A stretch of 64,000 bases of DNA from an uncultured Gammaproteobacteria bacterium (lineage in GTDB: Bacteria > Pseudomonadota > Gammaproteobacteria > Poriferisulfidales > GCA-002705445), in NCBI GenBank assembly GCA_913042035.1, contig CAJWIN010000001.1, forward strand, positions 9,357 through 73,356, read 5' to 3'. Made by a program: the position numbers and the translations under genes. Under the pieces are notes generated by a model. That model ran no database searches, was not told where the DNA came from, and worked only from the letters and a program-made list of their open reading frames with translations. Each line of letters begins with the position of its first letter. The stretch's first letter is position 1. Positions 455-34,241 of the stretch are shown one piece after another.

Positions 455-1336
455 ATGAATATAAATAAAGCAAAAATTGGGATTATTGGCACAGGTATTA
501 TGGGCATGCCAATTGCTAAAAATCTTCTCAAAAATAAATATGACGTTTATGCTTATTCAAGAAACATTAAAAAACAAGCTCTTGTTGAAAAAAAGGGTAT
601 AAAAATTATCAAAAGTTTAAAAAACTTCTTTTATGATATTGATATCTTAATTTTAGCTGTTTCAGACACTAAGGATGTTAAGGAGATTTTAACTGGAAAA
701 AATGGCCTAATAAACAATATTTCTAAAATTTCGATTGTAATTGATATGAGTACAATTTGCCCTATTGAAACTATAAAAATATCAAAAAAATTAAAAAAAA
801 GTAACATTTCAATGGTCGATGCTCCAGTATCTGGTGGAGAGATTGGTGCTATTAAAGGAAATTTATCGATAATGGTTGGTGGCGAGGAAAGTATTGTAAA
901 AAAGATATTGCCAATTTTTAAAGTACTTGGAGAAAAAATAACACATATCGGAGCCTCTGGCTCAGGACAAGTTGCAAAAGCATGTAACCAAATAATTGTT
1001 GCCCAAACATTACAGGGGGTTAGCGAAGCTTTTATAATTGCAGATAAATTTAAAGTAGATAAATCAAATATTAGAGAAGCTTTATTAGGTGGTTTTGCTT
1101 ATAGTAAAGTTTTGGACATGCACGCTAAAAGAATACTAGATAAAGATTTTAAACCTGGATTTAAAACAAAACTTCATGCGAAAGATCTTAGAATCGCAAA
1201 AAATATAGCTAAGAGAAAAAACTTAAATCTTCCAGGCACAACATTAGTTAACATCAATATGAATAAATGTAAAAATCAAGGCCACAGCGAGAAAGACTCA
1301 TCTTCATATTATTATATTGTAAAAAAGAAAAGCTAA
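455..1336 (+). CDS. NAD(P)-dependent oxidoreductase of the 3-hydroxyisobutyrate dehydrogenase / tartronate semialdehyde reductase (6PGDH-like) family.
   Basis: N-terminal Rossmann motif IGIIGTGIMGMPIAKNL. The internal DAPVSGG...G-L-IMVGG motif is typical of HIBADH/GarR/MmsB enzymes. Length is 293 aa. Confidence 0.8.
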   Translation: MNINKAKIGIIGTGIMGMPIAKNLLKNKYDVYAYSRNIKKQALVEKKGIKIIKSLKNFFYDIDILILAVSDTKDVKEILTGKNGLINNISKISIVIDMSTICPIETIKISKKLKKSNISMVDAPVSGGEIGAIKGNLSIMVGGEESIVKKILPIFKVLGEKITHIGASGSGQVAKACNQIIVAQTLQGVSEAFIIADKFKVDKSNIREALLGGFAYSKVLDMHAKRILDKDFKPGFKTKLHAKDLRIAKNIAKRKNLNLPGTTLVNINMNKCKNQGHSEKDSSSYYYIVKKKS

Positions 1337-2037
1337 TGAAGATAATATTAAAATCAATACTATATTCACTTTACTTAATAAAAATGTCATGGAAAAACTA
1401 TTTGCCAGTAGCCTTTTATTTAATACTAAGTCAATTTTTTGTTATGTATGCACAAAGTCCTTACTTAGTTTTATTATTTTTTGTAGGCTATTTAGCAATA
1501 TCTTCGCCTTTAGTTATTAATATATTCAGAAATATCATTTTAGAAGATGATATAAAAAATAGTTACATAGAATTTTTTAAAAAAGATTATACGAAAATAT
1601 TTATTAACAGAATATATTACTTATTATCTTGTACAATTTTAATCTATATTATACATATAATAATATTATCGCCTTTTTTTCCATCTGATATTCCAAAAAT
1701 GACTATTTATTTATATATATTGTTCGCCTATATGATATATATCTACTCTAGAATAATGTTTATACTTCCGGGGGCAGCATGTGGATTAAAAAAAAATTTG
1801 AAAGATTCTTATTTATTTACAAAAGGAGAATCAATAAAAATTTATTTTCTGTATTTAACATTAATAGTGCCTTATGTAACTCTAAATATATTATTATCAG
1901 GCTATGAAAATTTACTCGAATATAGAGAAATTTTTGTATTTATATCAATTATTATTCAAATTATTTTTACAATAATCAGCACTGCTCTAGTTGGATTTAT
2001 TTATAAGAGTATTGATGTTCAAGAAAAGAAAGTTTAG
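1336..2037 (+). CDS. Hypothetical polytopic inner-membrane protein with about 6 predicted TM segments and no recognisable family.
   Basis: Strongly hydrophobic, with helices interspersed by short charged loops. The start overlaps the upstream stop (TAATG at 1334-1338), suggesting translational coupling with the dehydrogenase. Confidence 0.45.
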   Translation: MKIILKSILYSLYLIKMSWKNYLPVAFYLILSQFFVMYAQSPYLVLLFFVGYLAISSPLVINIFRNIILEDDIKNSYIEFFKKDYTKIFINRIYYLLSCTILIYIIHIIILSPFFPSDIPKMTIYLYILFAYMIYIYSRIMFILPGAACGLKKNLKDSYLFTKGESIKIYFLYLTLIVPYVTLNILLSGYENLLEYREIFVFISIIIQIIFTIISTALVGFIYKSIDVQEKKV

Positions 2038-4986: not shown

Positions 4987-6219
4987 ATGATAATAAATAA
5001 AGATACTCTCAAAATAAATTCTAACCTTAATCCAGCTAAGTTTCTTTGGACGTTTTTAAAAACCGAATCAGCCTCTGGTTTGCTCTTAATAATATTCAGT
5101 ATTTTAGCTATTATTCTTGCTAATTCTGATTTATCTAGTTATTACTATTCATTAAAAAATAGTTATATATCAATAAGTCTTGATAACTTCACCATAAAAG
5201 AGTCAGTACATCATTTTGTAAATGATGGATTAATGGCTATATTTTTTTTGGTTATAGGCTTAGAGTTAAAAAGAGAAATGATAAGTGGTCAGCTATCATC
5301 TGTAAAAAAAGTACTTTTGCCTGGAGTAGCAGCTATAGGTGGGATGGCAGTACCAGCTTTAGTATATTTGATAATTAATCACGATAACCCACAAGCTACC
5401 TCAGGATGGGCTATACCAACAGCTACAGATATAGCATTTTCACTTGCGGTATTAGCAGTTTTAGGCAACAAAGTGCCTGTAAGCCTCAAAGTATTTCTTC
5501 TGTCGTTAGCAATAATTGATGATCTTGGCGCAGTTTTAGTAATAGCGCTTTATTATACTTCTGAAATTTCTACTGGAAATTTATTAAGCGCATTTGGGAT
5601 TTTTGTTATTTTAATGTGGTTAAATTATAATAATGTAAGAATTGTAAGTATATATTTATTTGGAGGATTGTTTTTATGGTACTTCATTTTGCACTCTGGA
5701 ATACATACAACAATAGCTGGAGTTATTCTAGCGGCAACAATACCACTATCAATTAAAGATACAAATCATTCTCCTGCTAAATACTTAGAAGAAAAGCTTC
5801 ATACGTTTTCTGGGTTTGTAATATTGCCACTATTTGCTTTTTTCAATGCAGATATAAATCTAGATTCTATAAGTATGAGCTCGCTGTCAAACCCGGTACC
5901 ATTAGGAATTATGTTAGGCCTTTTACTTGGAAAACCCATAGGAATAACTTTACTTACATATCTCTCATTAAAATTAAAGATATGTTCTCTACCAAACAAT
6001 GTAAGCCTTATTGATATACTAGGCGTATCATTTCTGTGTGGAATAGGTTTTACAATGAGTTTATTTATTAATGCTTTAGCATTTCCAGAAAGCAATCAAA
6101 TTATTAATTTTGGGCAAGAATACTCAAAATCTGGGATATTTTTTGGGTCCATTTTATCTGGTATAATTGGTTATGTAATTTTAAAACTCAGGCTAAAAAA
6201 ATATGCAGACCAAGAATAA
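4987..6219 (+). CDS. nhaA: Na+/H+ antiporter NhaA.
   Basis: The N-terminal FLKTESASGLLLIIFSILAIILANS matches the NhaA signature (E. coli FFSSDASGGIILIIAAILAMIMANS). Multi-TM, 410 aa. Confidence 0.9.
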   Translation: MIINKDTLKINSNLNPAKFLWTFLKTESASGLLLIIFSILAIILANSDLSSYYYSLKNSYISISLDNFTIKESVHHFVNDGLMAIFFLVIGLELKREMISGQLSSVKKVLLPGVAAIGGMAVPALVYLIINHDNPQATSGWAIPTATDIAFSLAVLAVLGNKVPVSLKVFLLSLAIIDDLGAVLVIALYYTSEISTGNLLSAFGIFVILMWLNYNNVRIVSIYLFGGLFLWYFILHSGIHTTIAGVILAATIPLSIKDTNHSPAKYLEEKLHTFSGFVILPLFAFFNADINLDSISMSSLSNPVPLGIMLGLLLGKPIGITLLTYLSLKLKICSLPNNVSLIDILGVSFLCGIGFTMSLFINALAFPESNQIINFGQEYSKSGIFFGSILSGIIGYVILKLRLKKYADQE

Positions 6220-7231
6220 TACCATATATAAAACTATTTTAACTATAAGCGGTCTAATAATAATTTTTGCAGGTCTTAAAACTGCTGATAAAATTGTTGT
6301 TCCTTTTTTTCTTTCAATGTTTATTGCTTTAGTATCATTTCCATTATTAAAATTTTTTCAGTCTAAAAAAATTAATACCCCTGTGTCAGTTTCGCTTGTA
6401 TTATTAACAATAATATCTGTAAGCCTAAGTATAGCTGCTTTAATAGGAACCTCTTTAAATAGTTTTAGAAAATCACTACCCTATTATAAAGAAAAAATAA
6501 CAAATGAACTTGATGGGCTTGCTTCTTCTCTTGAGAAATATAATATTAATATTGATTCTAATTTTTTATATGAGTACATTGACCCTAATTTTCTAATGCA
6601 ATCTGTAGCAAACACTCTAAGTGCTTTTGGAAATGTCTTAACAAACTACTTTTTAATTTTATTTATAGTAATGTTTACCCTATTAGAGGCTGCCGGATTT
6701 TCAAATAAAATTAAAATAGCTTTTAAAAATAGCGAAAAATCTATTTCAAATTTCCACACCTTTAGTGAAAATATGAATAAATACCTTTCAATCAAAACTA
6801 TCGTGAGCATGATTACTGGTCTATTAATATATATACTTTTATTGATAGTAGGAATTGACCATGCAGTAATGTGGGGTTTAGTAGCTTTCTTTTTAAACTA
6901 TATACCAAATATTGGCTCTATCATTGCATCAATACCTGCAATAATAATTGCTTTTATACAATTTAATTTCTTTTATGCCGTCATAGTTGCTTTATTGTAT
7001 CTAGTTGTAAATATAGTTATGGGAAGTATTATTGAGCCAAAATATCTTGGTAAGGAACTCGGAATATCAACTCTTATAATATTTTTATCGCTAATATTTT
7101 GGGGGTGGCTGCTAGGTCCTGTAGGAATGTTATTATCTGTTCCACTAACAATGATTATGAAAATTGCATTGGAGAGTAATAATGACACAAAATGGATCGC
7201 CATAATGCTTAGCAGAAATATTAACAATTAG
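6203..7231 (+). CDS. AI-2E family transporter (UPF0118; PerM/YdiK/TqsA-like membrane protein).
   Basis: About 8 TM helices. The C-terminal GWLLGPVGMLLSVPLT motif is typical of the AI-2E family. Confidence 0.7.
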   Translation: MQTKNNTIYKTILTISGLIIIFAGLKTADKIVVPFFLSMFIALVSFPLLKFFQSKKINTPVSVSLVLLTIISVSLSIAALIGTSLNSFRKSLPYYKEKITNELDGLASSLEKYNINIDSNFLYEYIDPNFLMQSVANTLSAFGNVLTNYFLILFIVMFTLLEAAGFSNKIKIAFKNSEKSISNFHTFSENMNKYLSIKTIVSMITGLLIYILLLIVGIDHAVMWGLVAFFLNYIPNIGSIIASIPAIIIAFIQFNFFYAVIVALLYLVVNIVMGSIIEPKYLGKELGISTLIIFLSLIFWGWLLGPVGMLLSVPLTMIMKIALESNNDTKWIAIMLSRNINN

Positions 7232-7820
7232 AATTTAAGGCAAAGTCCTTACAAATTTTTTTTAGTTTATAAGAATTACCCCTAGATACTATAGATATTT
7301 TTTGCTTACTAGAAGGATAATTTCTAGAAAAATCTTTATCAATTACGTCCTCTTTTAAAAAAAAATTATTTAAAAATTTTTTTTTATTAAATTTTATAGA
7401 TTTAACGAGAAGTAATGGAGCATTAATCTTATTTGCAATTGATAGGGCTATAGAATCAGATGTTGAATCCCAGTTCGATGATATGTTAAGTTTTAACACT
7501 TCTTTAAAAGATGGAATCCATACTAATAATTTTCTTTTTTTATAATTTTTTTTTATATCTTCAATAGAATGAAGTTGTTTAAAATTTCTCAAATAACATA
7601 AATGATCATTTGTTAAATATTTCATAGCATTAATTGCTAAAATATGAGCTTGGTAATCATCATAATGCTTAATTTTTTGTTCTTTTCTGACTTGGTCAGC
7701 ATATTTTCCACCTCCAAATATAAGTAAAAAACTATTATCAAACTCAAGTTCTATAGTTTTTATCCATCTTTTTATATACGCAGACGACTGAAGACTTCCG
7801 CCAATCTTAATGACTACCAT
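7221..7820 (-). CDS. Amino-acid-kinase-fold protein (Asp/Glu/UMP kinase-like), short form, function unknown. It is the last gene of a four-gene minus-strand operon.
   Basis: N-terminal VVIKIGGS motif typical of the carbamate/amino-acid kinase fold, and an internal WDSTSDSIAL motif resembling the DTD-S-A motif of UMP/isopentenyl-phosphate kinases. It is only 199 aa, against about 250 aa for canonical members. It overlaps the pabB end by 7 nt. Confidence 0.45.
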   Translation of the reverse strand: MVVIKIGGSLQSSAYIKRWIKTIELEFDNSFLLIFGGGKYADQVRKEQKIKHYDDYQAHILAINAMKYLTNDHLCYLRNFKQLHSIEDIKKNYKKRKLLVWIPSFKEVLKLNISSNWDSTSDSIALSIANKINAPLLLVKSIKFNKKKFLNNFFLKEDVIDKDFSRNYPSSKQKISIVSRGNSYKLKKICKDFALNSNC

Positions 7821-9151
7821 TTAAATTCACCATTAGAGAAAAAATCAATAAAAATTGACACTTTGTCTAAGCTTTCATTGTACTCATCTTCGGGAATGGA
7901 GTCATAAACTATTCCTCCACCAGCAGCGAAATTTAATTTTCCCTTATACATCATTATTGTTCTTATACAGATATTTGTATCCATGTTATTATTTTCATTA
8001 AAGTATCCGATTGAACCGCAATAAACATCTCTTTTTCTATTTTCTAATTCGCTAATAATTTCCATAGACCTTTTTTTAGGTGCGCCAGTGATAGATCCTC
8101 CAGGAAAACAAGCTTCTAATATACTAATTGATGTACTTTCAGGATTTAATTTTCCATTAATTGTACTAACCATATGATGAACAGAAGCGTAACTTTCGAT
8201 ATCAAATAGCTTGGAAACCTTTACAGTGCCAAGTTCACAGCATTTACTTAAATCGTTTCTTAATAAATCAACAATCATTAGGTTTTCAGATATATTTTTT
8301 TCATCATGTTTTAGTATATCTATTTGTTTTTGGTCTAAATTGTGATCTTTTAGTCTTTTCATAGTTCCTTTTATTGGCTTCGTTTCTACCATATTTTCAT
8401 TTACAGAAATAAATCTTTCTGGGGATGAGCTTATAACATATCTTTCATTAAAACTTATAAAAGACGAATATGGCGCAGGATTTATAATTCTTATGTTTTT
8501 ATATATATCCCAAGGGTTGCCAAAATATTCGGCGGTAAAGTTTTGAGAATAATTAACTTGATAGCAATCACCATTTGTTATGTAATTTTTAATTCTACTT
8601 ATATCTTTTATATATTTATCTTTTGAAGTTGTTTGTCTAAAATTTGAAAAAAAATAATCTTTTGAATCCTTGATCAAAGTATTAATTGATGCAATTTTAT
8701 TAATAATATTTTCAATAAAATAATTTGTTTTTTTGAAAACTAGATTTGATTCTTTTTTTTCATGATCAACAATTATTGCCCAATCATAAAATCCTACAGC
8801 AATATCTGGAAAGTCACCATCGCTATCAATATTGTTCAGAGCATCATAACCAAAATAACCTATCATTCCTGAGCTAAAAGGAAGATCCGTGATATCTGAA
8901 TTTACGTTAAAGTATTTTTTAATTATATCAAATGGGTTGTCTTTAAAATGAGAGTCCACACCATTTTCGTTTATTGTAATAGAATTACCTTTGCTCAATA
9001 TAGTCATGTATGGATTACATGTTAGAATATCATATTTTCCAAATGATCCGACATCATTGCAACTATCTAAAAAAATAAACCAATTATTATCTTTCAATAA
9101 TTCTCCATATAGACAGGAATTTTTAAAGTATTTAATTTTAACTTTATTCAT
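7814..9151 (-). CDS. pabB: Aminodeoxychorismate synthase component I (PabB-type chorismate-utilising enzyme).
   Basis: C-terminal chorismate-binding domain (GGSITGAPKKRSMEIISELE, CGSIGYF, AGGGIV). It carries the PIKGT motif with the lysine that distinguishes PabB from TrpE. The 445-aa length is typical of PabB. Confidence 0.8.
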   Translation of the reverse strand: MNKVKIKYFKNSCLYGELLKDNNWFIFLDSCNDVGSFGKYDILTCNPYMTILSKGNSITINENGVDSHFKDNPFDIIKKYFNVNSDITDLPFSSGMIGYFGYDALNNIDSDGDFPDIAVGFYDWAIIVDHEKKESNLVFKKTNYFIENIINKIASINTLIKDSKDYFFSNFRQTTSKDKYIKDISRIKNYITNGDCYQVNYSQNFTAEYFGNPWDIYKNIRIINPAPYSSFISFNERYVISSSPERFISVNENMVETKPIKGTMKRLKDHNLDQKQIDILKHDEKNISENLMIVDLLRNDLSKCCELGTVKVSKLFDIESYASVHHMVSTINGKLNPESTSISILEACFPGGSITGAPKKRSMEIISELENRKRDVYCGSIGYFNENNNMDTNICIRTIMMYKGKLNFAAGGGIVYDSIPEDEYNESLDKVSIFIDFFSNGEFKW

Positions 9152-9157
9152 ATAGTT

Positions 9158-10192
9158 TTAAAATGTTCTATGAAAATTTTTAACAACTAATGCAGCAGTA
9201 AAATTTTTATATAATATTTTTTTATCTACATTATCTGTCGTAAAAATATTTTCATTATCAATCGAAAAGTATTTTATTTTATGCTTATGCGCAAGATATT
9301 TAACCAAAAAACTTCCTTCACCGATAGAAGATAATGTAATATTTTGTAATTCATTTCCAAGTAAGAGTTTAATTTTTTTAAAAATAATATTAGCAAATTC
9401 TTTTTTAATCATATGGCTAATCTTGATAATTTCACTTTGCATTTCCTTTTGATAATCTAGACCAATTGATCTTGCTAATCTTTTAAAAGAATTTTCTTTA
9501 CTGTATTCTAGGTTATCAGCTCCAAAATAGTCTAATTTTTCAAAATTTATATCATTTGTTAGATTAAAAACATCTCCTGTAGTTGAAAAAAACTCATTAA
9601 TAAGTGGTATATTTTTAGAAAAATAATTAACCTCGTTTAGCAACATTGATATTGGCGTTCGTATAACGCCTGCATAAAGTAACGAATTATTTATAAGTCT
9701 TAAATGATCATTTATATTTTCTTTTACATCCATATTTTTATATATAAAATCAGTGGTTGTCGAGCCTATATCAATAATTAAATGTATATTTTTTGATTTA
9801 TTGACAAATTTTGATGTCAATATCCAATTTGTTGAGTATAGGTTTTCTGGGTTATTTTTAGCACTATCAAAATCAATATACCTATCTTGATTTGTATAAA
9901 ATAATTTATGCCCTAAAATAAAAGAATTACAGTTTTTTAATATCGATAAAATGCCAGTTTTTCTATCTTTAAAATTATCGCATGATTCTGCTGTTATAGT
10001 GATGTAATTAAAAATTACATAAACTGAATACTCTTTTGATATTTTATCAAATAAATTATTTAGTTCTTTGAAATTACTCCATATATTAATATTAATACAT
10101 TCGATACGAGTAATATTAAGGGTAGAATCAAAAACACAGATTTTTGTATTAGCGCCGCCAATATCCCAGCCTATATATACTTTATTTTTCAT
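9158..10192 (-). CDS. ASKHA-fold (hydantoinase/BadF/acetate-kinase-like) ATPase, unknown substrate. Possibly a member of the 'H4MPT-linked C1 transfer pathway protein' family.
   Basis: The N-terminal YIGWDIGGANTK is an ASKHA phosphate-1 motif, and IIDIGSTTTDFI is a second phosphate/adenosine motif. 344 aa. It is coupled to the flanking genes (11-nt overlap upstream, 6-nt gap downstream). Confidence 0.5.
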   Translation of the reverse strand: MKNKVYIGWDIGGANTKICVFDSTLNITRIECININIWSNFKELNNLFDKISKEYSVYVIFNYITITAESCDNFKDRKTGILSILKNCNSFILGHKLFYTNQDRYIDFDSAKNNPENLYSTNWILTSKFVNKSKNIHLIIDIGSTTTDFIYKNMDVKENINDHLRLINNSLLYAGVIRTPISMLLNEVNYFSKNIPLINEFFSTTGDVFNLTNDINFEKLDYFGADNLEYSKENSFKRLARSIGLDYQKEMQSEIIKISHMIKKEFANIIFKKIKLLLGNELQNITLSSIGEGSFLVKYLAHKHKIKYFSIDNENIFTTDNVDKKILYKNFTAALVVKNFHRTF

Positions 10193-11159
10193 TAGTAATA
10201 CTTAACGTGAAAAGACTATTCTGTGTAATATCATAGTCTATTATATTATCATTAAAAAATCTAAAAGGATTTATACCCAAAGTTTTTCTCAAACCAATAT
10301 AAGAGGTTGTTAGTCTTGGATTAATTTCTAGAAAGAAAATATTACTATCTGTTATTATAGCGTCAACACCTATAAAACCAAAATAACCATCTAGGTTTTT
10401 GAAAATAATTTTTATAAAAGACTCGATTTCAGATAGCATATAATTAAATTTCCCAATATTTATCTTATAAAGAAATATTTCATGCTCAGAAGAATTTTTA
10501 TAGATTTGTTCATTAATCGATAAAATCTTAATTCCACTAGAGTTTATCAATAAATTAATACCTATAATCTTTCCTTCAATATATTCTTGAAAAACATGAT
10601 TTTTATTTAGTTTGTAATTATTCTTTTCAAGATCATTTCTATCATTGAATATAAGTAGATTTTCAGAAGCTAATCCATCAGAAATTTTAGCTACAATTTT
10701 TTTATGTTTATCAATATTTTGATACTTTTTATGTATTTTAATTTGATGCTTTCTTGAATTTTTTAATAAATTCTGTGTGCGTAATTTACATGTTGTTTCA
10801 TAAATAAAATTACTTTTACAGTTAAAATTACTTATTTTTTTTTCTTCAAGAGCTTTTACAATATTATATAAATTCAAATTTTCTTCTGGGGCTAAAATAA
10901 AAACTTTGTCATTTTCTTTTAAATTTTTACATAAATCTACTATTAAATTGTTTTCATAATTTCTGAAAATACATCTTTTTTTTTCCAAAAAATTTTTATT
11001 TTTTTTATTTATTAATAATGATATCTTAGATTCAGTATATTCTGATTTTAGGTCTTCAATTAGAAAGTTTGTGATTAATTTGGCCTCATTTAGTATTAGT
11101 GGTGACGTATTTATTTTAAAATCCTCACCTAAAAAATATTCGTAAATCAAAATGTCCAT
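10182..11159 (-). CDS. ATP-grasp family ligase (carboligase-like), unknown substrate.
   Basis: C-terminal ATP-grasp core (YIEG...GIN, FGFIGVDAIITDSNIFFLEINPR; the E-x-N motif is typical of the ATP-grasp Mg-binding loop). 325 aa. First gene of the minus-strand operon. Confidence 0.5.
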   Translation of the reverse strand: MDILIYEYFLGEDFKINTSPLILNEAKLITNFLIEDLKSEYTESKISLLINKKNKNFLEKKRCIFRNYENNLIVDLCKNLKENDKVFILAPEENLNLYNIVKALEEKKISNFNCKSNFIYETTCKLRTQNLLKNSRKHQIKIHKKYQNIDKHKKIVAKISDGLASENLLIFNDRNDLEKNNYKLNKNHVFQEYIEGKIIGINLLINSSGIKILSINEQIYKNSSEHEIFLYKINIGKFNYMLSEIESFIKIIFKNLDGYFGFIGVDAIITDSNIFFLEINPRLTTSYIGLRKTLGINPFRFFNDNIIDYDITQNSLFTLSITNEK

Positions 11160-11165
11160 AATTAT

Positions 11166-11828
11166 ATGAAATTAATACCTGCTATAGATTTAAAAAACAA
11201 TAAAGTTGTAATATCAACTAAAGGAAAGAATCGTGAATATAAACTGATTCCAGCTGATTTATCACCCACTTCTGACCCTATAGAATTTATTGAGTATATT
11301 CTTTCTCTAAATGATTTTAACACAATATATTTAGCAGATTTAGACTCGATTGCAAATTTTAAAGTAAATAATGATATTATTGAAAATATTTTACTTGAAC
11401 ACAGTAATATTAATTTCATGGTAGATAATGGGGTAAGATTATTCTCTGAAATAAATCAATACAAAAATAGTAATTTTATTCAAGTAATTGCCACAGAAAC
11501 CTTTGTTGAATACTCTAAGATTATAAATAATAACTATAATGACTATATTTTATCTGCAGATTTTGTTAATGGAAAATTGTACTCAAAAAACTGTGGCTAT
11601 AAAACTATTAAACCTAACAAAGTTATAGCAATGGATATTGATAATATTGGTAAAAAGTCTGGAGCTAATATTAACAATGTCAAAAAAATTAAAAAAATTT
11701 ACCCCTATTCTTCAATAATTTTATCAGGTGGAATAGGTAGCAACGATGATATTATGACTGCAAAAGCAAATAAAATTTCAGAGATCATGCTACTAACAGC
11801 TCTACTAGAGGATAATATTACTTACTAA
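11166..11828 (+). CDS. HisA/HisF-like (beta/alpha)8-barrel protein. Probably not histidine biosynthesis.
   Basis: N-terminal LIPAIDLKNNKVV matches HisA/HisF (IIPALDLIDGTVV), and the C-terminal SGGIGSNDDI matches the HisA phosphate-binding GG loop. It is 220 aa, shorter than HisA, with no his genes nearby. It is transcribed divergently, 6 bp from the ATP-grasp start. Confidence 0.5.
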   Translation: MKLIPAIDLKNNKVVISTKGKNREYKLIPADLSPTSDPIEFIEYILSLNDFNTIYLADLDSIANFKVNNDIIENILLEHSNINFMVDNGVRLFSEINQYKNSNFIQVIATETFVEYSKIINNNYNDYILSADFVNGKLYSKNCGYKTIKPNKVIAMDIDNIGKKSGANINNVKKIKKIYPYSSIILSGGIGSNDDIMTAKANKISEIMLLTALLEDNITY

Positions 11829-11834
11829 AAAAAC

Positions 11835-12467
11835 CTACTGCTCTATTTCTTCAAAGGCTGCTGTTAATTCCCTAATAATTTGTTTTTGCACGCTATCTTT
11901 ACTTTGATTTGCATCTATCGATTTAATTCTTTTTTTGTTCTCGTTTGCTAATTTCATGTATCCATTATAAACATCATTAAAAAATATATCGTTTAAATTC
12001 TCAAATCTATCCTTATTTTTATTTCTGGGAAATCTTTTTTTTGCTAGATTATAAGGAAGATTAAAAAAAATTGTTAGATCTGGTAATACTTTTTTTGTAA
12101 AATTATCAACCAAAGATTCAATTTTTTTTAAATTTACTTTTTTCCCATACCCTTGATATGCGAAAGAAGCATCTATGAATCTATCACACAACACCCATGT
12201 TCCAGCTTTTAGCTTTGGAATAATAATATCCTCTATGTGTTGATTTCTTATTGCAAAAATTAGTAGTAATTCTGCTTCAGGAGATATTACTGACTTATTA
12301 CTAAGCAAGATATCTCTTATAGACTCTCCAAATCTTGTACCACCAGGCTCACGTGTGCAGTAAACGTCTATATTATTTTTTTCTAAAAATTTTTTTATAT
12401 AATTAATTGTGGTAGATTTTCCAACTCCTTCTATTCCTTCAAAACTAATTAATTTTCCATTATTCAT
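11835..12467 (-). CDS. tmk: Thymidylate kinase.
   Basis: P-loop FEGIEGVGKST. 210 aa. Conserved position downstream of mltG. Confidence 0.9.
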   Translation of the reverse strand: MNNGKLISFEGIEGVGKSTTINYIKKFLEKNNIDVYCTREPGGTRFGESIRDILLSNKSVISPEAELLLIFAIRNQHIEDIIIPKLKAGTWVLCDRFIDASFAYQGYGKKVNLKKIESLVDNFTKKVLPDLTIFFNLPYNLAKKRFPRNKNKDRFENLNDIFFNDVYNGYMKLANENKKRIKSIDANQSKDSVQKQIIRELTAAFEEIEQ

Positions 12468-29459: not shown

Positions 29460-29501
29460 TTTATCTAACTAATTAAAATTAATTTATGTTATATTATTTA
29501 A

Positions 29502-29873
29502 ATGGAATTTAATGAACAAATTTTAGAAAAAAATTCTAATATTATTAAATCTTACACGAATTCATCTATAACCGTGCTAGATAAAGAATATAACTATAAT
29601 TTAATAGTTCCTCCCGAAAAATCTGTAATTAAATGTGATATAACAGCAAAAGATTTCACAAATGAATTTGTTGTTAAGAACTTGCCCAAAAATGCAGATT
29701 TTGTAATCATAGCAATAAATAATACAGCTTGCATAGATAAAACACCAATTATTTTGGAGTTGAACAAACTAAATATTGGAGCAGAGGTGATGAATTTAAG
29801 CTCAGCTTGCAGTTGTCATAATATTTTAATATCCGAAAAAAGAGATTTTGCAAGTTTCTTTATTTTTAACTAG
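29502..29873 (+). CDS. Small MTH938-like (DUF498 / NDUFAF3-like) domain protein.
   Basis: The C-terminal IGAEVMNLSSACSCHNILISEKRDFAS fits the MTH938-like domain tail (G.EvM.T.aAC.TyNiL.aEgR). 123 aa. Confidence 0.45.
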   Translation: MEFNEQILEKNSNIIKSYTNSSITVLDKEYNYNLIVPPEKSVIKCDITAKDFTNEFVVKNLPKNADFVIIAINNTACIDKTPIILELNKLNIGAEVMNLSSACSCHNILISEKRDFASFFIFN

Positions 29874-30623
29874 TCAAGGGAGATATTTCTCTGGGTCTAC
29901 AGGTTTACCGTTTTTTCTAATTTGAAAATGTAATATTGGCTTTATAGAATCAGTATCACCTAGGTTTGCAATTATTTGTCCTTTTTTAACAATATTGTTT
30001 TCCTCAACTAAAATTTTGCTTGTATGCGCATAGGCTGAAAGAAAAGTTTCATTGTGCTTAATAATAATTAAGTTTCCATAGCCCTTAATACCATTACCTG
30101 TATAAACAACCATTCCATCTCCTGTTGAATAAATATTGTCACCAAGTACTCCAGAAATATCGATTCCTTTTTTTCCAACATCACTATATGAAAATTCTTT
30201 TGAGACTTTTCCATTATGTGGTCTAACCCATTTTACGTTTTTTGTATATTTTATTTTTTTATTATTCTTACTGACTTTTTTATTATTACCAACTTCTTTT
30301 CTATACTTATTAGATTTTATAACTATTTTATCACCAACCATTAACCTGTATGGTGAATTTATGTTATTCCAGCTTGCAATTTTTAAATAATTGACATCAT
30401 ATAATAAAGATATTGAATACAAACTATCACCTTTTTGTACGATATATATGTCTCCACTTTCAGAGCCTTTTTTCGATTTTAGACCATAAGTAAAGTAAAC
30501 TCTTTCTTTTCTAGGCTCCTTATCTGGTAGAGATTGCTTAGTTGAATGATTGTGTATTTTTGTACATGATAATGTAATCAAAGAAATTAAAATACAACTT
30601 ATGAAGGTAATTTTATAATTCAT
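29874..30623 (-). CDS. nlpD: NlpD-like murein hydrolase activator lipoprotein (LysM + M23 peptidase domains).
   Basis: Lipobox LITLSC, a LysM domain (YIVQKGDSLYSISLLY) and an M23 domain (HFQIRKNGKPVDP). Conserved surE-pcm-nlpD neighbourhood. Confidence 0.8.
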   Translation of the reverse strand: MNYKITFISCILISLITLSCTKIHNHSTKQSLPDKEPRKERVYFTYGLKSKKGSESGDIYIVQKGDSLYSISLLYDVNYLKIASWNNINSPYRLMVGDKIVIKSNKYRKEVGNNKKVSKNNKKIKYTKNVKWVRPHNGKVSKEFSYSDVGKKGIDISGVLGDNIYSTGDGMVVYTGNGIKGYGNLIIIKHNETFLSAYAHTSKILVEENNIVKKGQIIANLGDTDSIKPILHFQIRKNGKPVDPEKYLP

Positions 30624-30629
30624 AATATT

Positions 30630-31202
30630 TTAAAAAAACTTTAAGTAAATAAAATATATTAAAATTAAAATAATAATCCAGCCTAGATATTCAAAATAAT
30701 TTTTAATTTTATTTGCAACTTTTATTCCAAAATAATGAAACAAACCAGCAACGAGAAAAAATCTTAGCGCCCGTCCAATAAATGAAGCCAATAAGAAAGG
30801 TAATATTGATAATGACATGTAACCTGCTGTGATAGTAAATGCTTTAAAAGGTAAAGGTGTAAATCCTGCTATAATAATAATAATAATTCCATGTTCATTG
30901 AAAAGCTTCTTAACTTCAAGAAATACTTTTTCATCAATTATTTTATTTAAAAAAGACAATTCGTAAAGATACAAACCAATTATATAGCCAACTAATCCCC
31001 CTAAAACAGAAAATACTGTTGTATTGAAAGCAATTTTAAGCCAACTGTGTTTTTTAGTAAGAGCAATTGGTGCTAATAGTACATCGGGAGGTATTGGAAA
31101 AATAAAGGATTCAATAAAACTTAAACTATATAAATACTTTGTAGCTTTTTCTTTATTAGAAAAATTTAAAATATATTCATAAGTAGTTGTAAATATCTTC
31201 AT
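30630..31202 (-). CDS. DedA/YqaA-family small membrane protein.
   Basis: 190 aa with 4-5 TM segments. The PPDVLLAPIAL motif is typical of DedA/SNARE-associated family proteins. Confidence 0.55.
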   Translation of the reverse strand: MKIFTTTYEYILNFSNKEKATKYLYSLSFIESFIFPIPPDVLLAPIALTKKHSWLKIAFNTTVFSVLGGLVGYIIGLYLYELSFLNKIIDEKVFLEVKKLFNEHGIIIIIIAGFTPLPFKAFTITAGYMSLSILPFLLASFIGRALRFFLVAGLFHYFGIKVANKIKNYFEYLGWIIILILIYFIYLKFF

Positions 31203-31870
31203 TATGAAATACCACTTAATAATGGAACAAACTTTACAATACCGTGTATCTCTTCTTTATAGTGATCATTATTTTTAGTTATTGATTTTAAGTACTGTTT
31301 TCCGCTATTTTCTACTGGGGAAACTAAAATTCCGTTATTATTTGATAATTGATTCATTAGCGCGTCAGGGATATTAATTGCGCCTGCTGTAACAATGATT
31401 GCATCAAAAGGAGACTTCTGAGTCCACCCTATATTTCCATCTGCATATTTAGTATATATATTTTTAAAACCAATTTTTTGAAATATTTTTTTTGATTTTT
31501 TATGTAGGTATTCAATTCGCTCAATTGTATAAACTTTATCAACTAATAAGGATAAAACTGAAGCTTGATAACCAGAACCTGTTCCAATTTCTAAAACTCT
31601 TTTGGGCTTATATTTCATAATTATTTCAGTCATTTTTGCAACTATTAAAGGATGAGATATTGTTTGAGATTTTCCAATTGGCAAAGCCGTATTGTCATAG
31701 GCTTTACTTGCAATTGCTTCATCAACAAAAATATGTCTTGGAATTGAACGCATCGATCTTAATACATCCGAATTTTTGATACCCTCAGATTTAAGCATTG
31801 AAACAAGCTTTTCTCTAGATGAATCTGATGTCATTCCAATACCTGAAAACTTTTTAAAATCTATACTCAT
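31202..31870 (-). CDS. pcm: Protein-L-isoaspartate O-methyltransferase.
   Basis: SAM-binding VLEIGTGSGYQ and the PIGKSQTISHP region. 222 aa. Confidence 0.93.
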   Translation of the reverse strand: MSIDFKKFSGIGMTSDSSREKLVSMLKSEGIKNSDVLRSMRSIPRHIFVDEAIASKAYDNTALPIGKSQTISHPLIVAKMTEIIMKYKPKRVLEIGTGSGYQASVLSLLVDKVYTIERIEYLHKKSKKIFQKIGFKNIYTKYADGNIGWTQKSPFDAIIVTAGAINIPDALMNQLSNNNGILVSPVENSGKQYLKSITKNNDHYKEEIHGIVKFVPLLSGIS

Positions 31871-32586
31871 TTTATTTTATTTAATAAATCTTTATTTGTT
31901 AAATCATAAGTCAATGGAGTAATTGAAATTTTATTATCTTTTATGGAGAAAAAATCTGTGTCTTCAGAGCTATCTACTGCAGGACCTGCGGCACCAATTC
32001 TATAATGATCTTTAACTTTTGTTTTTGTTGCTGCCAAAGGCAGCCCCCTTGTCCCAAGTCTAGTAAACTGATAAGTGATGTTATTCGTATCGTGATCGGG
32101 GATATTAACGTTTAATAAAGTTTTTTCTGAAATTTTTTGATTATTAGTAATTTCATGAATGATTTTCGAACTTAAAATAGCCGCATTAGTTATACTAATG
32201 TTATCATGCGAAACTAAAGATATTGCTATAGGAGACATTTCCAAATGCCTTCCCTCCAAAGCTGCGGCAACTGTGCCTGAATATATAACATCATCTCCAA
32301 GATTTGCGCCTAAATTAATCCCAGAAACTACTAAATCAATTTTATCTTTAATTAAGCATGTAAGGGCAATATGAACACAATCAGCAGGTGTACCGTCAAT
32401 AGCATAATGATTTTTCATAACATTATTAACTTTAATATCTCTTCTCACTGTAAGTGCACTACTTCCAGCACTATGATTTTTTGATGGTGCTGCAACATAT
32501 ATTTCATGATTTTTTTCTAGTTGTTTGATCAGCTCTTGTATACCGACTGCATAGTAACCATCATCATTGGACAATAATATTTTCAT
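31867..32586 (-). CDS. surE: 5'/3'-nucleotidase SurE.
   Basis: N-terminal MKILLSNDDGYYAVGI (the DDG metal site). 239 aa. Confidence 0.93.
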   Translation of the reverse strand: MKILLSNDDGYYAVGIQELIKQLEKNHEIYVAAPSKNHSAGSSALTVRRDIKVNNVMKNHYAIDGTPADCVHIALTCLIKDKIDLVVSGINLGANLGDDVIYSGTVAAALEGRHLEMSPIAISLVSHDNISITNAAILSSKIIHEITNNQKISEKTLLNVNIPDHDTNNITYQFTRLGTRGLPLAATKTKVKDHYRIGAAGPAVDSSEDTDFFSIKDNKISITPLTYDLTNKDLLNKIK

Positions 32587-32627
32587 ATGTGATGATTATA
32601 CTTAAAATAATTATTAGATGAAGCGTT

Positions 32628-32981
32628 ATGATCAAAAATAGTACAATAGGAAACTGTAAACCTGGTTTTCAGAAAAAAAGGTTTCAAAAATTAAAAAAAG
32701 GTGAACTTAATATTGCTTTTGAAATAGATTTGCACGGAAAAAACCTTATTGAAGCAGAAAATTTTCTCGATATATGGCTTCCAAAGCTTCAAATGGAGGA
32801 TAATTTAGTAGGAATTATTATTCATGGTAAAGGCTACGGCTCAGGCCCCGAAGGTCCAAAGCTAAAAAACTTTGTAGATCAATATTTGCAATATAATCCA
32901 AATATACTAGCCTACCATTCTGCTCAACAGAAAGACGGTGGAACTGGTGCAGTATATATTCAACTAAAGAAAATCAATTAA
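32628..32981 (+). CDS. Smr-domain protein (small MutS-related endonuclease domain).
   Basis: EIDLHGKNLIEAENFL (the DLHG-x4-EA motif) and IIHGKGYGS. 117 aa. Confidence 0.7.
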   Translation: MIKNSTIGNCKPGFQKKRFQKLKKGELNIAFEIDLHGKNLIEAENFLDIWLPKLQMEDNLVGIIIHGKGYGSGPEGPKLKNFVDQYLQYNPNILAYHSAQQKDGGTGAVYIQLKKIN

Positions 32982-32987
32982 TATATT

Positions 32988-34241
32988 ATGAAAAAAAATA
33001 AAGTATATACCTGTATGGATGACTATGATCCTAATTCAATTTTCATTGAAGATGCATTAAATAAAATAACAAAATTAACAAAAAAGATAAGTTCTTACGA
33101 ATATGTTGATTTAATTAGATCGCATAATAGAGTTCTCTATGAAAATATTAAATCTAAGATAAAAGTTCCTAATTATGATAATTCAGCAATGGATGGGTAT
33201 GCATTAAATATCAATGATACAAAAAATAATAATATTTTTAAGGTTGCAGGGTCTTCCTTGGCAGGAATCTCATACAAAGGTAAAATAAAAAAAAATGAGT
33301 GTGTAAAAATAATGACAGGTGCAGTTTTACCAAAAAACTGTAACGTCGTTATTATGAAAGAAGAAATAGAAGATATTGATAGAGAAACAATAAAAATTCA
33401 TTCAAAAAATATTAAAAAATATCAGAATATTAGATTTTCTGGAGAAGACATAAAACCTAATATAGTATTGCTAAAGAAACTTCATGTTATGGATTCATCC
33501 TCAATGGGTCTTCTTGCATCTCAAGGTATAAATAAATTAAAAGTTTACAAGAACCCTAAAATTTCCTTTTTTACTTCTGGTGATGAGGTTGTTGCTGTGA
33601 ATAAAAAACTTCCATATGGAAAGGTTCATGACAGTAATAGGTTTACATTAACCGGGATGCTTAAAAAAAATAATGTAGATGTAATTGATTTAGGTCATGC
33701 TAAAGATAATGTTACAGATATTAAAAGAAAATTCAAAAAAGCAATAAAAGAATCTGACTTGGTAATATCAACAGGAGGAGTTTCAGTAGGTGACGCTGAT
33801 TATATTAAAGATGTTGTAAAATCGTTAGGAAATATAAATTTTTGGAAAGTTGCTGTTAAACCAGGAAGACCTCTTGCATTTGGGAAACTAAATAATACAA
33901 TATTTTTTGGGCTTCCAGGCAATCCAGTGTCCGTAATGGTTACCTTCCTATTATTTGTATTACCAACGATAAATATGATGGCTGGTAAAAAATATCAGCT
34001 CAAAACTGAAAATGCAATTCTCAAATCAAGTTTGAGGAAAAGACAAGGTAGGGCTGAATTACAAAGAGGTATTTTTTATTTAGAAAAAAACAAAATGTAT
34101 GTAAAAAGCGTAGGTGAGCAAGGATCTGGAATTTTGAGCTCTATGGCTAAAGCAAACTGCTTAATTTATCTTCCAGTAGAAAAAGGTAAATCCAAAATAA
34201 ATGATACTGTCGAGATTATAAAATTTAAAGACTATATTTAA
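32988..34241 (+). CDS. moeA: Molybdopterin molybdenumtransferase MoeA.
   Basis: MoeA central MPT-binding domain (SGDEVV, GKVHDSNRFTL, ISTGGVSVGDADY, GLPGNPVS). 417 aa. Confidence 0.9.
   Translation: MKKNKVYTCMDDYDPNSIFIEDALNKITKLTKKISSYEYVDLIRSHNRVLYENIKSKIKVPNYDNSAMDGYALNINDTKNNNIFKVAGSSLAGISYKGKIKKNECVKIMTGAVLPKNCNVVIMKEEIEDIDRETIKIHSKNIKKYQNIRFSGEDIKPNIVLLKKLHVMDSSSMGLLASQGINKLKVYKNPKISFFTSGDEVVAVNKKLPYGKVHDSNRFTLTGMLKKNNVDVIDLGHAKDNVTDIKRKFKKAIKESDLVISTGGVSVGDADYIKDVVKSLGNINFWKVAVKPGRPLAFGKLNNTIFFGLPGNPVSVMVTFLLFVLPTINMMAGKKYQLKTENAILKSSLRKRQGRAELQRGIFYLEKNKMYVKSVGEQGSGILSSMAKANCLIYLPVEKGKSKINDTVEIIKFKDYI

What the first reader, a model, noticed from the sequence alone, without database searches (positions are those of the whole stretch)
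7221..11828. Non-housekeeping five-gene block (aa-kinase-fold, PabB, ASKHA ATPase, ATP-grasp ligase, HisA/F-like) replacing holB after tmk; candidate methanopterin/methanofuran-like cofactor pathway
Everything else in the window is core metabolism in conserved proteobacterial order. In this block, four minus-strand genes are packed with 6-nt gaps or 7-11-nt overlaps, in the order ATP-grasp, ASKHA/hydantoinase-like, PabB, short amino-acid-kinase fold. A HisA/HisF-like barrel faces them 6 bp away. Together they occupy the position where holB and ycfH normally follow fabF-pabC-mltG-tmk. A pABA-forming enzyme together with an ATP-grasp ligase, a hydantoinase-like ASKHA protein, an amino-acid-kinase paralogue and a HisA/HisF paralogue is not a known folate operon. 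It is the family mix recalled for the archaeal and methylotroph C1-cofactor accessory genes (TIGRFAM 'H4MPT-linked C1 transfer pathway protein', hisA/hisF-related family, COG1821-type ATP-grasp, Orf21-type kinase). pABA is the arylamine precursor of methanopterin in bacteria, and the canonical pabC sits 2 kb away. No fae, mch, mtd, fhc or mptG is visible in these 64 kb. So this may be a partial or diverged cofactor pathway, or a different pABA-derived metabolite pathway.
Basis: partly seen in the sequence, partly recalled or inferred. Interest (0 to 1): 0.78.

Follow-up and report, generated by a model that had tools for sequence, protein, structure and literature searches.

The report
Methylofuran/pABA cofactor genes, split from island
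The five genes are the known cofactor-building module (methylofuran core plus pABA supply) of the bacterial formaldehyde-oxidation pathway, here moved next to tmk in a tiny-genome marine sulfur-oxidising gammaproteobacterium that carries the rest of the pathway about 49 genes away, so it is a correct but largely ordinary call.

Summary
The block is real: four tightly packed minus-strand genes and one divergent gene sit between tmk and an AI-2E transporter gene.

It is the orf17 | orf1(mfnD) – orf9(mfnF) – pabB – orf21(mfnE) module of the methylotroph "archaeal-like" H4MPT/methylofuran gene island. The same five families occur in the same order and orientation in 21 methylotroph loci, usually beside fae, mch and mtdB.

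The window's organism is a ~1.1 Mb, 28.6% GC marine gammaproteobacterium close to GCA_002705445.1 (GTDB genus GCA-2705445).

In this lineage the island is split. The other half, purL | mptG-mtdB-orfY-mch-orf5-orf7-fae-PTPS-holB, lies elsewhere. In MAG GCA_018675635.1, mch and the block's mfnF-like gene are 49 protein accessions apart, and both sequences have a longest contig of 590,524 bp. The "missing" holB follows that half.

The block genes are under purifying selection (dN/dS 0.07–0.26).

A 2022 preprint already reports a complete H4MPT pathway in all species of this genus.

Its "partial or different pABA pathway" alternative is not needed.

Novelty is low: a new member of a known kind. 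I did not verify fhcABCD or mfnB.

The parts
7221..7820 (-). orf21/mfnE-like small kinase of the amino-acid-kinase fold. Predicted to convert [5-(aminomethyl)furan-3-yl]methyl phosphate (F1-P) to F1-PP.
   Evidence: Pfam AA_kinase 26.9 bits. NCBIfam MfnE NF040622 E=2.3e-17, 63 bits, below the 300-bit cut-off. The Methylobacillus orthologue scores 88 bits, also below the cut-off. Same position after pabB as in 21 methylotroph loci. N-terminal IKIGGS motif. PDB 7qrh E=1.3e-8. dN/dS 0.14-0.19.
7814..9151 (-). pabB, aminodeoxychorismate synthase component I. Supplies the pABA precursor for MptG (H4MPT arylamine) and probably also for folate.
   Evidence: TIGR00553 pabB 377.5 bits, above the 328.4 cut-off. 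TrpE models are below their cut-offs. PIKGT catalytic-lysine motif in the translation. 40-46% identical to the pabB lying between orf9 and orf21 in methylotroph islands. pabB is listed among H4MPT-island genes in PMC4109929 and PMC3615186.
9158..10192 (-). orf9/mfnF-like ASKHA protein. Predicted to couple F1-PP to gamma-glutamyl-tyramine/tyrosine to form the methylofuran core.
   Evidence: TIGR03123 207.3 bits (cut-off 244.1) and MfnF NF040623 138 bits (cut-off 520). The Methylobacillus orthologue scores 342 and 131 bits. 38 invariant columns shared with methylotroph orthologues, including DIGGA and DIGSTTTD. PDB 3c0b, an archaeal homologue, E=6e-25.
10182..11159 (-). orf1/mfnD-like ATP-grasp ligase. 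Predicted tyramine/tyrosine–L-glutamate ligase.
   Evidence: Pfam ATP-grasp_3 85.7 bits. MfnD_Meth NF040722 90 bits (cut-off 400). The Methylobacillus orf1 scores 79 bits. mfnD = orf1 according to PMC5020050. PDB 3df7 E=5e-11.
11166..11828 (+). orf17-like HisA/HisF-family barrel, divergent from the other four genes. Its orthologue is required for methylofuran synthesis in M. extorquens; the reaction is unknown.
   Evidence: Pfam His_biosynth 77.8 bits. TIGR00734 hisAF_rel 69.6 bits (cut-off 179.85). True HisA TIGR00007 63.5 bits (cut-off 228.95). The Methylobacillus orf17 scores 108 bits on TIGR00734. Orf17 genetics are in PMC8141765.
13450..14268 (-). pabC, aminodeoxychorismate lyase, 2 kb from the block. 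It completes pABA synthesis from the PabB product.
   Evidence: TIGR03461 pabC_Proteo 226 bits, above the 176.85 cut-off. It lies in the canonical fabF-pabC-mltG-tmk position.

Best explanation
**What it is.** The block is the cofactor-biosynthesis sub-module orf17 | orf1(mfnD) – orf9(mfnF) – pabB – orf21(mfnE) of the bacterial H4MPT/methylofuran-linked formaldehyde-oxidation pathway.

**Inferred mechanism** (from the archaeal MfnD/E/F enzymology and from M. extorquens / M. flagellatus genetics, as summarised in PMC8141765):
- The ATP-grasp ligase joins glutamate to tyramine or tyrosine.
- The small kinase converts the furan intermediate F1-P to F1-PP.
- The ASKHA protein couples F1-PP to the glutamyl-tyramine, giving the methylofuran core.
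- Orf17 acts at an unknown early step of core formation.
- PabB, with PabC 2 kb away, makes pABA. MptG, encoded in the other half of the island, turns pABA into the arylamine part of (dephospho)H4MPT. pABA probably serves folate as well.

**Genomic setting.** In this streamlined marine lineage (related to GCA_002705445.1, GTDB genus GCA-2705445; ~1.1 Mb contigs, ~28% GC) the island is split.
- This module stayed next to tmk.
- mptG-mtdB-orfY(myfA)-mch-orf5(myfB)-orf7-fae-PTPS stayed next to holB.
- In one MAG of the lineage the two halves are about 49 genes apart.

**Shown here:** homology, conserved order, co-occurrence in the same genome, and purifying selection.

**Inferred:** the individual reactions, and the presence of fhcABCD and mfnB, which rests on the preprint only.
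For: 1. Family hits for all five proteins. A bona fide methylotroph, Methylobacillus glycogenes, gives almost the same scores on the same models.
2. The same five genes in the same order and orientation occur in 21 of 77 non-lineage loci, including Methylotenera, Methylobacillus, Methylophilaceae, Thiodiazotropha and other gammaproteobacteria. 52 of the 77 also carry mch or fae within 10 kb. L087 shows the full layout mtdB-orfY-mch-orf5-orf7-fae | orf17 | orf9-pabB-orf21.
3. The literature names exactly these genes as part of the island (PMC4109929; PMC3615186). It assigns Orf9=MfnF, Orf21=MfnE, Orf1=MfnD and shows Orf17 is essential for methylofuran (PMC8141765; PMC5020050).
4. Same-genome link.
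   - Mch P0601 has accessions MBT7542969.1 / MBT7603443.1.
   - The block's MfnF-like P0135 has accessions MBT7543018.1 / MBT7603394.1.
   - These are 49 accession numbers apart in both assemblies, and both proteins have a longest contig of 590,524 bp.
   - The mch locus is GCA_018675635.1 JABGXU010000007.1.
5. That island carries mptG (TIGR00144 169 bits, cut-off 113.5), mtdB, orfY, mch, an MptN/RimK-like orf5, orf7 and fae. It lacks exactly the five genes of the block and ends with holB.
6. The window shares an identical InfA and ~85% flanking identity with GCA_002705445.1, which has the same block. A preprint reports a complete H4MPT pathway in every species representative of genus GCA-2705445.
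7. dN/dS of the block genes is 0.07-0.26, similar to the neighbouring mltG and pabC.
Against: - Four of the five proteins score below the curated NCBIfam cut-offs: MfnE 63/300, MfnF 138/520, MfnD 90/400, TIGR00734 70/180. TIGR03123 is also just below (207/244), whereas the Methylobacillus orthologue passes it (342).
- Block proteins diverge faster than their flanks: ~62% against ~85% identity to GCA_002705445.1.
- One divergent lineage member (L008) has no kinase gene at this locus.
- I could not check fhcABCD, mfnB/orf22, orf19, orf20 or afpA in this lineage. 'Complete pathway' rests on a preprint statement.
- No biochemical data exist for any bacterial Orf1, Orf9 or Orf21.
- The context of P0135 itself was not fetched. 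Its place in the tmk-adjacent clade is inferred from its 90%-identity cluster, whose representative P0027 is 49% identical to the window protein.
Confidence: 0.85

Rival explanations
1. Repurposed module. After losing or separating from the C1 pathway, the kinase, coupling enzyme and ATP-grasp ligase would act on a pABA-derived substrate. An example would be a non-canonical HPPK/DHPS/DHFS-like route to a folate-like compound, or another pABA metabolite.
For: - pabB is embedded between the mfnF-like and mfnE-like genes with a 6-nt gap and a 7-nt overlap, and pabC is 2 kb away.
- The MfnE/MfnF chemistry (diphosphate activation of a hydroxymethyl group, then substitution) is formally analogous to HPPK/DHPS. 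This analogy is my own reasoning.
- The proteins fall below the equivalog cut-offs.
- No C1 genes lie within the 64 kb window.
Against: - The same genome carries mptG, mtdB, mch, fae, orfY, orf5 and orf7, and that island lacks its own copy of these five genes. The block is therefore the only methylofuran-core set available.
- The pabB-embedded order is identical in ordinary methylotrophs.
- M. flagellatus has this layout and makes tyramine-type methylofuran with no pABA in it (PMC8141765).
- A true methylotroph's proteins miss four of the same five cut-offs; only its Orf9 passes TIGR03123.
Confidence: 0.04
2. Two unrelated units that merely sit together. pabB would be the cell's housekeeping folate gene, near pabC, and only the other four genes would be C1-cofactor genes. 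pabB would play no particular role in H4MPT synthesis.
For: - PabB is a canonical E. coli-type enzyme passing TIGR00553.
- The window also encodes folate-dependent SHMT.
- No second chorismate-binding enzyme is in the window.
- 28 Burkholderiaceae/Rhodocyclaceae-type loci have orf21 directly after orf9 with no pabB, so pabB is dispensable for the module itself.
Against: - The orf9-pabB-orf21 order is conserved across distant beta- and gammaproteobacterial methylotrophs (21 loci).
- pabB overlaps the neighbouring kinase gene, implying co-translation with cofactor genes.
- mptG, the pABA-consuming H4MPT enzyme, is in the same genome.
- The two roles are not exclusive. A single PabB in a 1.1 Mb genome probably serves both.
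Confidence: 0.1
3. Decaying remnant. The block would be a non-functional leftover of an ancestral island, on its way out of a streamlining genome.
For: - Planktonic Methylophilaceae lost all H4MPT/MF genes, and Nitrosococcus oceani keeps partial clusters (PMC5020050).
- L008 lacks the kinase gene at the locus.
- Block proteins evolve faster than the flanks.
Against: - All five ORFs are intact in every other contig examined, across 38-99% identity.
- dN/dS is 0.07-0.26.
- Nucleotide-binding motifs are invariant.
- The rest of the pathway is retained.
- A ~1.1 Mb genome would not keep 4.6 kb of dead DNA.
Confidence: 0.02

Closest known systems
orf17-orf1-orf9-pabB-orf21 segment of the 'archaeal-like' H4MPT/methylofuran gene island of Methylophilaceae and gammaproteobacterial methylotrophs (Methylobacillus, Methylotenera and others)
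   Same: - Same five protein families, same order, same divergent orientation of orf17, and the same tight packing.
- Comparable scores on the same NCBIfam models.
- Co-occurs with mptG, mtdB, mch and fae in the genome.
   Different: - Only 25-46% protein identity.
- Physically detached from fae/mch and placed between tmk and an AI-2E transporter gene.
- The host is a ~1.1 Mb, ~28% GC marine bacterium reported as a sulfur oxidiser, not a classical methylotroph.
- Orf9 falls just under the TIGR03123 cut-off.
Archaeal methanofuran core pathway MfnD / MfnE / MfnF (Methanocaldococcus jannaschii), plus the MJ0703 HisA/F relative
   Same: - Homologous ATP-grasp ligase, small AAK-fold kinase and ASKHA coupling enzyme.
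- Best NCBIfam hits are these equivalogs.
- The only hits with solved structures for the ASKHA and ATP-grasp proteins are 3c0b (an archaeal protein) and 3df7 (a putative ATP-grasp protein).
   Different: - All scores are far below the equivalog cut-offs.
- No mfnA, mfnB or mfnC nearby.
- The bacterial product is methylofuran, with a polyglutamate chain built by MyfA/MyfB, not methanofuran.
- pabB is not part of the archaeal gene set.
Split or partial H4MPT/MF clusters in non-methylotrophs (e.g. Nitrosococcus; Chistoserdova 2016, PMC5020050) and the GCA-2705445 'Thiotrichaceae' population of the Fram Strait preprint
   Same: - H4MPT/MF genes in a marine gammaproteobacterium outside the classical methylotrophs.
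- The preprint describes the same genus and reports a complete pathway.
   Different: - The preprint does not describe this module, its position next to tmk, or the split of the island at tmk/holB.
- Unlike the partial clusters reported for Nitrosococcus oceani (PMC5020050), these genes look functional.

Membership tests
Methylotroph H4MPT/methylofuran island module (orf17-orf1-orf9-pabB-orf21) | The five families in the order orf17(-) | orf1-orf9-pabB-orf21(+) | tested here: met
   Window ORFs. The identical arrangement occurs in 21 methylotroph or related loci.
Methylotroph H4MPT/methylofuran island module (orf17-orf1-orf9-pabB-orf21) | Same genome encodes the H4MPT-linked C1 enzymes and mptG (fae, mtdB, mch, mptG, orfY, orf5, orf7) | tested here: met
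   mch and the mfnF-like gene are 49 accession numbers apart in two MAG assemblies, and both proteins have a longest contig of 590,524 bp. Island content is shown.
Methylotroph H4MPT/methylofuran island module (orf17-orf1-orf9-pabB-orf21) | Genome encodes the methylofuran-using Fhc complex (fhcABCD) and the furan synthase mfnB/orf22 | not testable with these tools
   Whole genomes could not be read. The only support is the preprint's statement of a 'complete' H4MPT pathway in all GCA-2705445 species.
[quoted passage not shown] | Score at or above the curated cut-off of 244.1 bits | tested here: not met
   207.3 bits. The Methylobacillus Orf9 control scores 342.1 bits.
NCBIfam MfnF (NF040623), MfnE (NF040622), MfnD_Meth (NF040722) equivalogs | Score at or above the curated cut-offs (520 / 300 / 400 bits) | tested here: not met
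   138 / 63 / 90 bits. The methylotroph control also fails at 131 / 88 / 79 bits, so these cut-offs separate archaeal from bacterial proteins rather than deciding function.
PabB, aminodeoxychorismate synthase component I (TIGR00553) | Score at or above 328.4 bits, and the catalytic lysine in the PIKGT motif (E. coli type) | tested here: met
   377.5 bits, with TrpE models below their cut-offs. 'KPIKGT' is present in the translation.
TIGR00734 hisAF_rel (Orf17 / MJ0703 family) | Score at or above 179.85 bits | tested here: not met
   69.6 bits. The Methylobacillus Orf17 control scores 108.1 bits, also below the cut-off. This is nevertheless the best-scoring family for both proteins.
Genuine HisA (TIGR00007) | Score at or above 228.95 bits | tested here: not met
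   63.5 bits. Only weak C-terminal matches to solved HisA structures, E about 4e-4.
Ordinary families proposed as refuters (RimK, N-acetylglucosamine kinase) | Best hit and cut-off passed for RimK or a sugar kinase | tested here: not met
   The ATP-grasp protein has no RimK hit. The ASKHA protein hits only allose kinase, at E=0.0099.

The most novel reading that the evidence does not exclude
The lineage may make a non-standard furan cofactor. In this reading, pabB's conserved position between mfnF and mfnE reflects a direct role of an aminodeoxychorismate- or pABA-derived arylamine in the cofactor core, in place of tyramine or tyrosine. That would hold if this 1.1 Mb genome turns out to lack mfnA, mfnB and mfnC. 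A weaker version is that this minimal genome defines the smallest gene set for methylofuran synthesis and so exposes the unknown Orf17 reaction.
Probability: 0.05. Interest if true: 0.65.

Novelty: new member of a known kind. Interest (0 to 1): 0.27.

Why it matters
- It places a complete-looking H4MPT/methylofuran formaldehyde-oxidation system in an abundant, very small-genome marine gammaproteobacterium. That is relevant to oceanic C1 and methanethiol turnover.
- It shows that automated annotation, which relies on archaeal equivalog cut-offs, leaves the methylofuran genes unnamed.
- The tmk | … | holB split explains the apparent "loss" of holB after tmk.
- The module itself, its gene order and the pathway's presence in this genus are already in the literature. 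The finding therefore mainly confirms and refines what is known.
- Its practical value is a compact, strongly selected set of Orf17, Orf1, Orf9 and Orf21 sequences for testing the still-unproven bacterial MfnD/E/F functions and the unknown Orf17 step.

Tried and rejected
- **SAR86 guess.** I guessed SAR86 from the low GC and the small genome. Literature searches linking SAR86 to methanopterin, methanofuran or H4MPT found nothing relevant. The InfA look-up then pointed to GCA_002705445.1.
- **Alternative folate route.** I considered an HPPK/DHPS/DHFS analogue. I rejected it after finding mptG, mch and fae in the same genome and the same pabB-embedded order in ordinary methylotrophs.
- **Exact look-up of the window's MfnF-like protein.** It is not on record.
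- **Kalyuzhnaya et al. 2005**, the original description of the islands, is not held by DOI or PMC id. I used later papers that cite it.
- **AT-codon-biased Mch motif scan of metagenomes**.
  - Most low-GC hits were another lineage, labelled '[Rickettsiales bacterium]'. I had briefly considered these as a possible second paralogous module in the same genome.
  - Clustering singled out 'group D', which proved to be the right lineage.
- **'Same contig length' trick.** Applying it to representative proteins failed, because the table shows only the representative's own contigs. Listing cluster members solved this.
- **Look-ups of P0377, P0376, P0433 and P0437** returned other assemblies (GCA_001040245.1, GCA_002708355.1, GCA_028224965.1) that I could not tie to the block.
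- **Structure prediction, fold search and the representative-protein search** were not used. Sequence, synteny and co-occurrence already answered the question.

Full report
**Observation**

The five ORFs are exactly as described.
- 7221-7820(-): 199 aa.
- 7814-9151(-): 445 aa.
- 9158-10192(-): 344 aa.
- 10182-11159(-): 325 aa.
- 11166-11828(+): 220 aa.

The junctions are a 7-nt overlap, a 6-nt gap, an 11-nt overlap and a 6-nt divergent gap. The block lies between tmk (11835-12467) and an AI-2E transporter gene (6203-7231).

Pfam gives AA_kinase (weak), Chorismate_bind plus Anth_synt_I_N, Hydantoinase_A, ATP-grasp_3 and His_biosynth.

NCBIfam gives, as best hits:
- MfnE: 63 bits, cut-off 300.
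- pabB TIGR00553: 377.5 bits, cut-off 328.4, so it passes.
- TIGR03123 'probable H4MPT-linked C1 transfer pathway protein': 207 bits, cut-off 244.
- MfnF: 138 bits, cut-off 520.
- MfnD: 90 bits, cut-off 400.
- TIGR00734 hisAF_rel: 69.6 bits, cut-off 179.85.

PabB carries the E. coli-type PIKGT lysine motif.

The rest of the window is housekeeping. It includes fab genes, acnB, fumC, purB, thrC, hom, Moco synthesis, riboflavin synthesis, glyA, ccm, lpxK/msbA and mfd. No Fae, MCH, Mpt_N or FTR family appeared in the family lists; two of the three lists were truncated at 25 families. tblastn of island proteins against the window found nothing significant.

**Conservation in a lineage**

Homologues of the ASKHA protein form a tight marine clade, P0001-P0036 at 38-99% identity. 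The next hits drop to about 32% and are methylotroph proteins.

Every contig of that clade that I examined has the same five genes between tmk and the AI-2E/nhaA/leuS genes. These loci are 28-29% GC.

dN/dS of the five genes is 0.07-0.26, like the neighbouring mltG and pabC. Across this clade and its methylotroph orthologues, 38 columns of the ASKHA protein are invariant, including the DIGGA and DIGSTTTD motifs. The block is a functional, vertically inherited feature.

**What it corresponds to**

tblastn of the five proteins against 77 loci from other taxa gave two arrangements.
- 21 loci have the same five genes in the same order and orientation: orf17(-) | ATP-grasp – ASKHA – PabB – kinase. 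These include Methylotenera, Methylobacillus, other Methylophilaceae, Thiodiazotropha and other gammaproteobacteria.
- 28 Burkholderiaceae/Rhodocyclaceae-type loci have the kinase gene directly after the ASKHA gene, with no pabB.

52 of the 77 loci carry mch or fae within 10 kb. L087 shows the classical layout mtdB-orfY-mch-orf5-orf7-fae | orf17 | orf9-pabB-orf21.

The literature names these genes.
- Beck et al. 2014 list 'orf5,7,17,1,9, pabB, orf22, 19, 20, afp' as the H4MPT gene set of Methylophilaceae (PMC4109929).
- Matsen et al. [quoted passage not shown]
- Chistoserdova 2016 equates orf1 with mfnD (PMC5020050).
- Hemmann et al. 2021 equate Orf9 with MfnF, Orf21 with MfnE and Orf22 with MfnB. 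They show that the PF00977 protein Orf17 is essential for methylofuran but not for dH4MPT (PMC8141765).

As a control, the Methylobacillus glycogenes orthologues (L073) score 108, 79, 342/131, 378 and 88 bits on the same NCBIfam models. The window's failure to reach the archaeal equivalog cut-offs is therefore shared by a true methylotroph. Only TIGR03123 separates them: 342 bits against 207.

**Is the rest of the pathway in this organism?**

The window cannot answer this, so I looked for mch in low-GC DNA.
- A motif invariant in all 32 Mch sequences from the fetched loci (P…C.[AG]SQYAGW) was back-translated with A/T-ending codons. It was tested offline for sensitivity and specificity and then scanned against metagenome contigs.
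- The scan returned 120 loci, all with real Mch. Many were marine with 25-33% GC and full islands.
- Clustering separated several groups.
- The largest low-GC groups belong to '[Rickettsiales bacterium]' MAGs. They carry their own orf17-orf1-orf9 next to fae, so they are a different lineage.
- One group, 'group D' (L147, L150, L176, L177, L180, L192), has purL | GHMP-type gene – mtdB – orfY – mch – orf5 – orf7 – fae – PTPS-domain protein – holB – L,D-transpeptidase. It has no orf17, orf1, orf9, pabB or orf21.
- Its Mch proteins are labelled '[Gammaproteobacteria bacterium]' and lie on 1.08-1.11 Mb contigs.
- The GHMP-type gene is mptG, the β-RFAP synthase (TIGR00144 169 bits, cut-off 113.5). 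This is the enzyme that consumes pABA.

**Same-genome proof**

- Cluster listing shows Mch P0601 with accessions MBT7542969.1 / MBT7603443.1 and a longest contig of 590,524 bp.
- The block's MfnF-like protein P0135 has accessions MBT7543018.1 / MBT7603394.1 (locus tag HN613_03060) and the same longest contig of 590,524 bp.
- The two differ by exactly 49 accession numbers in both assemblies, in opposite directions.
- The mch locus is GCA_018675635.1 JABGXU010000007.1 at about 459 kb.

So the two halves of the island are about 49 genes apart in that genome.

In this lineage tmk is followed by the module, and holB is preceded by the other half. The simplest history is one island inserted between tmk and holB and later split by a rearrangement. 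This last step is inference.

**Identity of the organism**

- The window comes from a 73,973-bp NCBI contig named 'Gammaproteobacteria bacterium'.
- Its InfA is identical to that of GCA_002705445.1 and GCA_902613735.1, which have the same block.
- Flanking proteins are about 85% identical to GCA_002705445.1, and block proteins about 62%.
- L009, the 1.06 Mb LRMED-300 contig, is essentially identical to GCA_002705445.1 at this locus.
- GCA_002705445.1 gives its name to GTDB genus GCA-2705445.
- A 2022 preprint on Fram Strait bacteria reports methanethiol oxidase, a complete H4MPT-dependent formaldehyde-oxidation pathway, dsrAB and soeABC in a population of this genus. It states that these were confirmed in every species-representative genome (10.1101/2022.08.12.503524).

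**Mechanism**

The mechanism is inferred from homologues.
- The ATP-grasp protein makes γ-glutamyl-tyramine or γ-glutamyl-tyrosine.
- The kinase makes F1-PP.
- The ASKHA protein couples the two into the methylofuran core.
- Orf17 acts early at an unknown step.
- MyfA (orfY) and MyfB (orf5), encoded in the other half of the island, extend the polyglutamate chain.
- PabB and PabC provide pABA for MptG, and so for dH4MPT. In a 1.1 Mb genome they presumably supply folate too.
- pABA is not part of methylofuran. M. flagellatus, whose family carries this same island gene set including pabB, makes tyramine-type methylofuran.

**What remains untested**

- I could not read whole genomes, so fhcABCD, mfnB/orf22, orf19, orf20 and afpA rest on the preprint.
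- The context of P0135 itself was not fetched.
- L008, a divergent member of the lineage, lacks the kinase gene at this locus.

**Verdict**

The 'partial or different pABA pathway' option is not supported. Novelty is low: a known module in a lineage where the pathway has already been noted, with a new detail in the tmk/holB split.

Noticed in passing
L209 14539-15456; L210 14539-15447; L238 7885-8793; L241 11599-12507; L242 14556-15467: holB (DNA_pol3_delta2), missing after tmk in the window, sits immediately after the other half of the H4MPT island (…fae – PTPS-domain gene – holB – YkuD L,D-transpeptidase). This suggests the whole island was once inserted between tmk and holB and later split.
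   Followed up: partly
L210 13389-14534 (also L177 2243-3391, L242 13426-14547): A 373-382 aa protein lies between fae and holB. It has a C-terminal PTPS/QueD-like domain (TIGR00039 84 bits, below the cut-off) and an N-terminal ~230 aa with no family hit. It may be a pterin-branch enzyme for H4MPT synthesis.
   Followed up: partly
L008 12383-12402 (MAG ERR599032_bin.76): In this divergent member of the lineage, pabB is followed after 18 bp by the AI-2E transporter gene. The mfnE-like kinase gene is absent from the block and may have moved or been lost.
   Followed up: partly
L090, L095, L123, L135, L157, L189, L195 and related loci; P0267, P0301: Abundant marine contigs of 26-30% GC, labelled '[Rickettsiales bacterium]', carry full H4MPT islands (mptG-mtdB-orfY-mch-orf5-orf7-fae | orf17 | orf1-orf9) without pabB. 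This is an apparently widespread low-GC alphaproteobacterial plankton lineage with the pathway.
   Followed up: partly
L170, L173, L138, L122, L130 (GC 0.25-0.27); L099, L179, L149 (GC 0.30-0.33): Two further low-GC marine Mch clades of unknown affiliation. One has orf17-orf1-orf9 next to fae without pabB. The other has the full orf17-orf1-orf9-pabB layout, with fhc-like genes adjacent in L149.
   Followed up: no
window 7221-11828 compared with flanks; L216: Block proteins are only about 62% identical to GCA_002705445.1, while the flanking housekeeping proteins are about 85% identical. dN/dS is nevertheless similar to that of mltG and pabC. These are fast-evolving but constrained cofactor genes.
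   Followed up: yes
window 11159-11166 and 11828-11835: The orf17-like gene and the ATP-grasp gene start 6 bp apart on opposite strands. The orf17-like gene ends 6 bp from the end of tmk. Any promoters or terminators must therefore lie inside coding sequence. The same head-to-head arrangement occurs in methylotrophs.
   Followed up: no
L087 9739-10011: In this 1.44 Mb-contig gammaproteobacterium, only a 90-aa ORF with no Pfam hit lies between orf17 and orf9, where the orf1/mfnD ATP-grasp gene normally sits.
   Followed up: no
window 1336-2037 (+): This 233-aa ORF has orthologues in related contigs with no Pfam hit on record (the 235-aa gene in L001 and L005). It is conserved at 49-70% identity across the lineage, between lptE and a 3-hydroxyisobutyrate-dehydrogenase-like gene.
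   Followed up: no
window ~29500-36250: Molybdenum-cofactor synthesis families (MoaA radical-SAM/Mob_synth_C, MoaE, MoeA, MoCF_biosynth x2) are present among the window's genes in a ~1.1 Mb genome. This could relate to formate dehydrogenase or sulfite oxidation downstream of the C1/sulfur metabolism reported for the genus.
   Followed up: no
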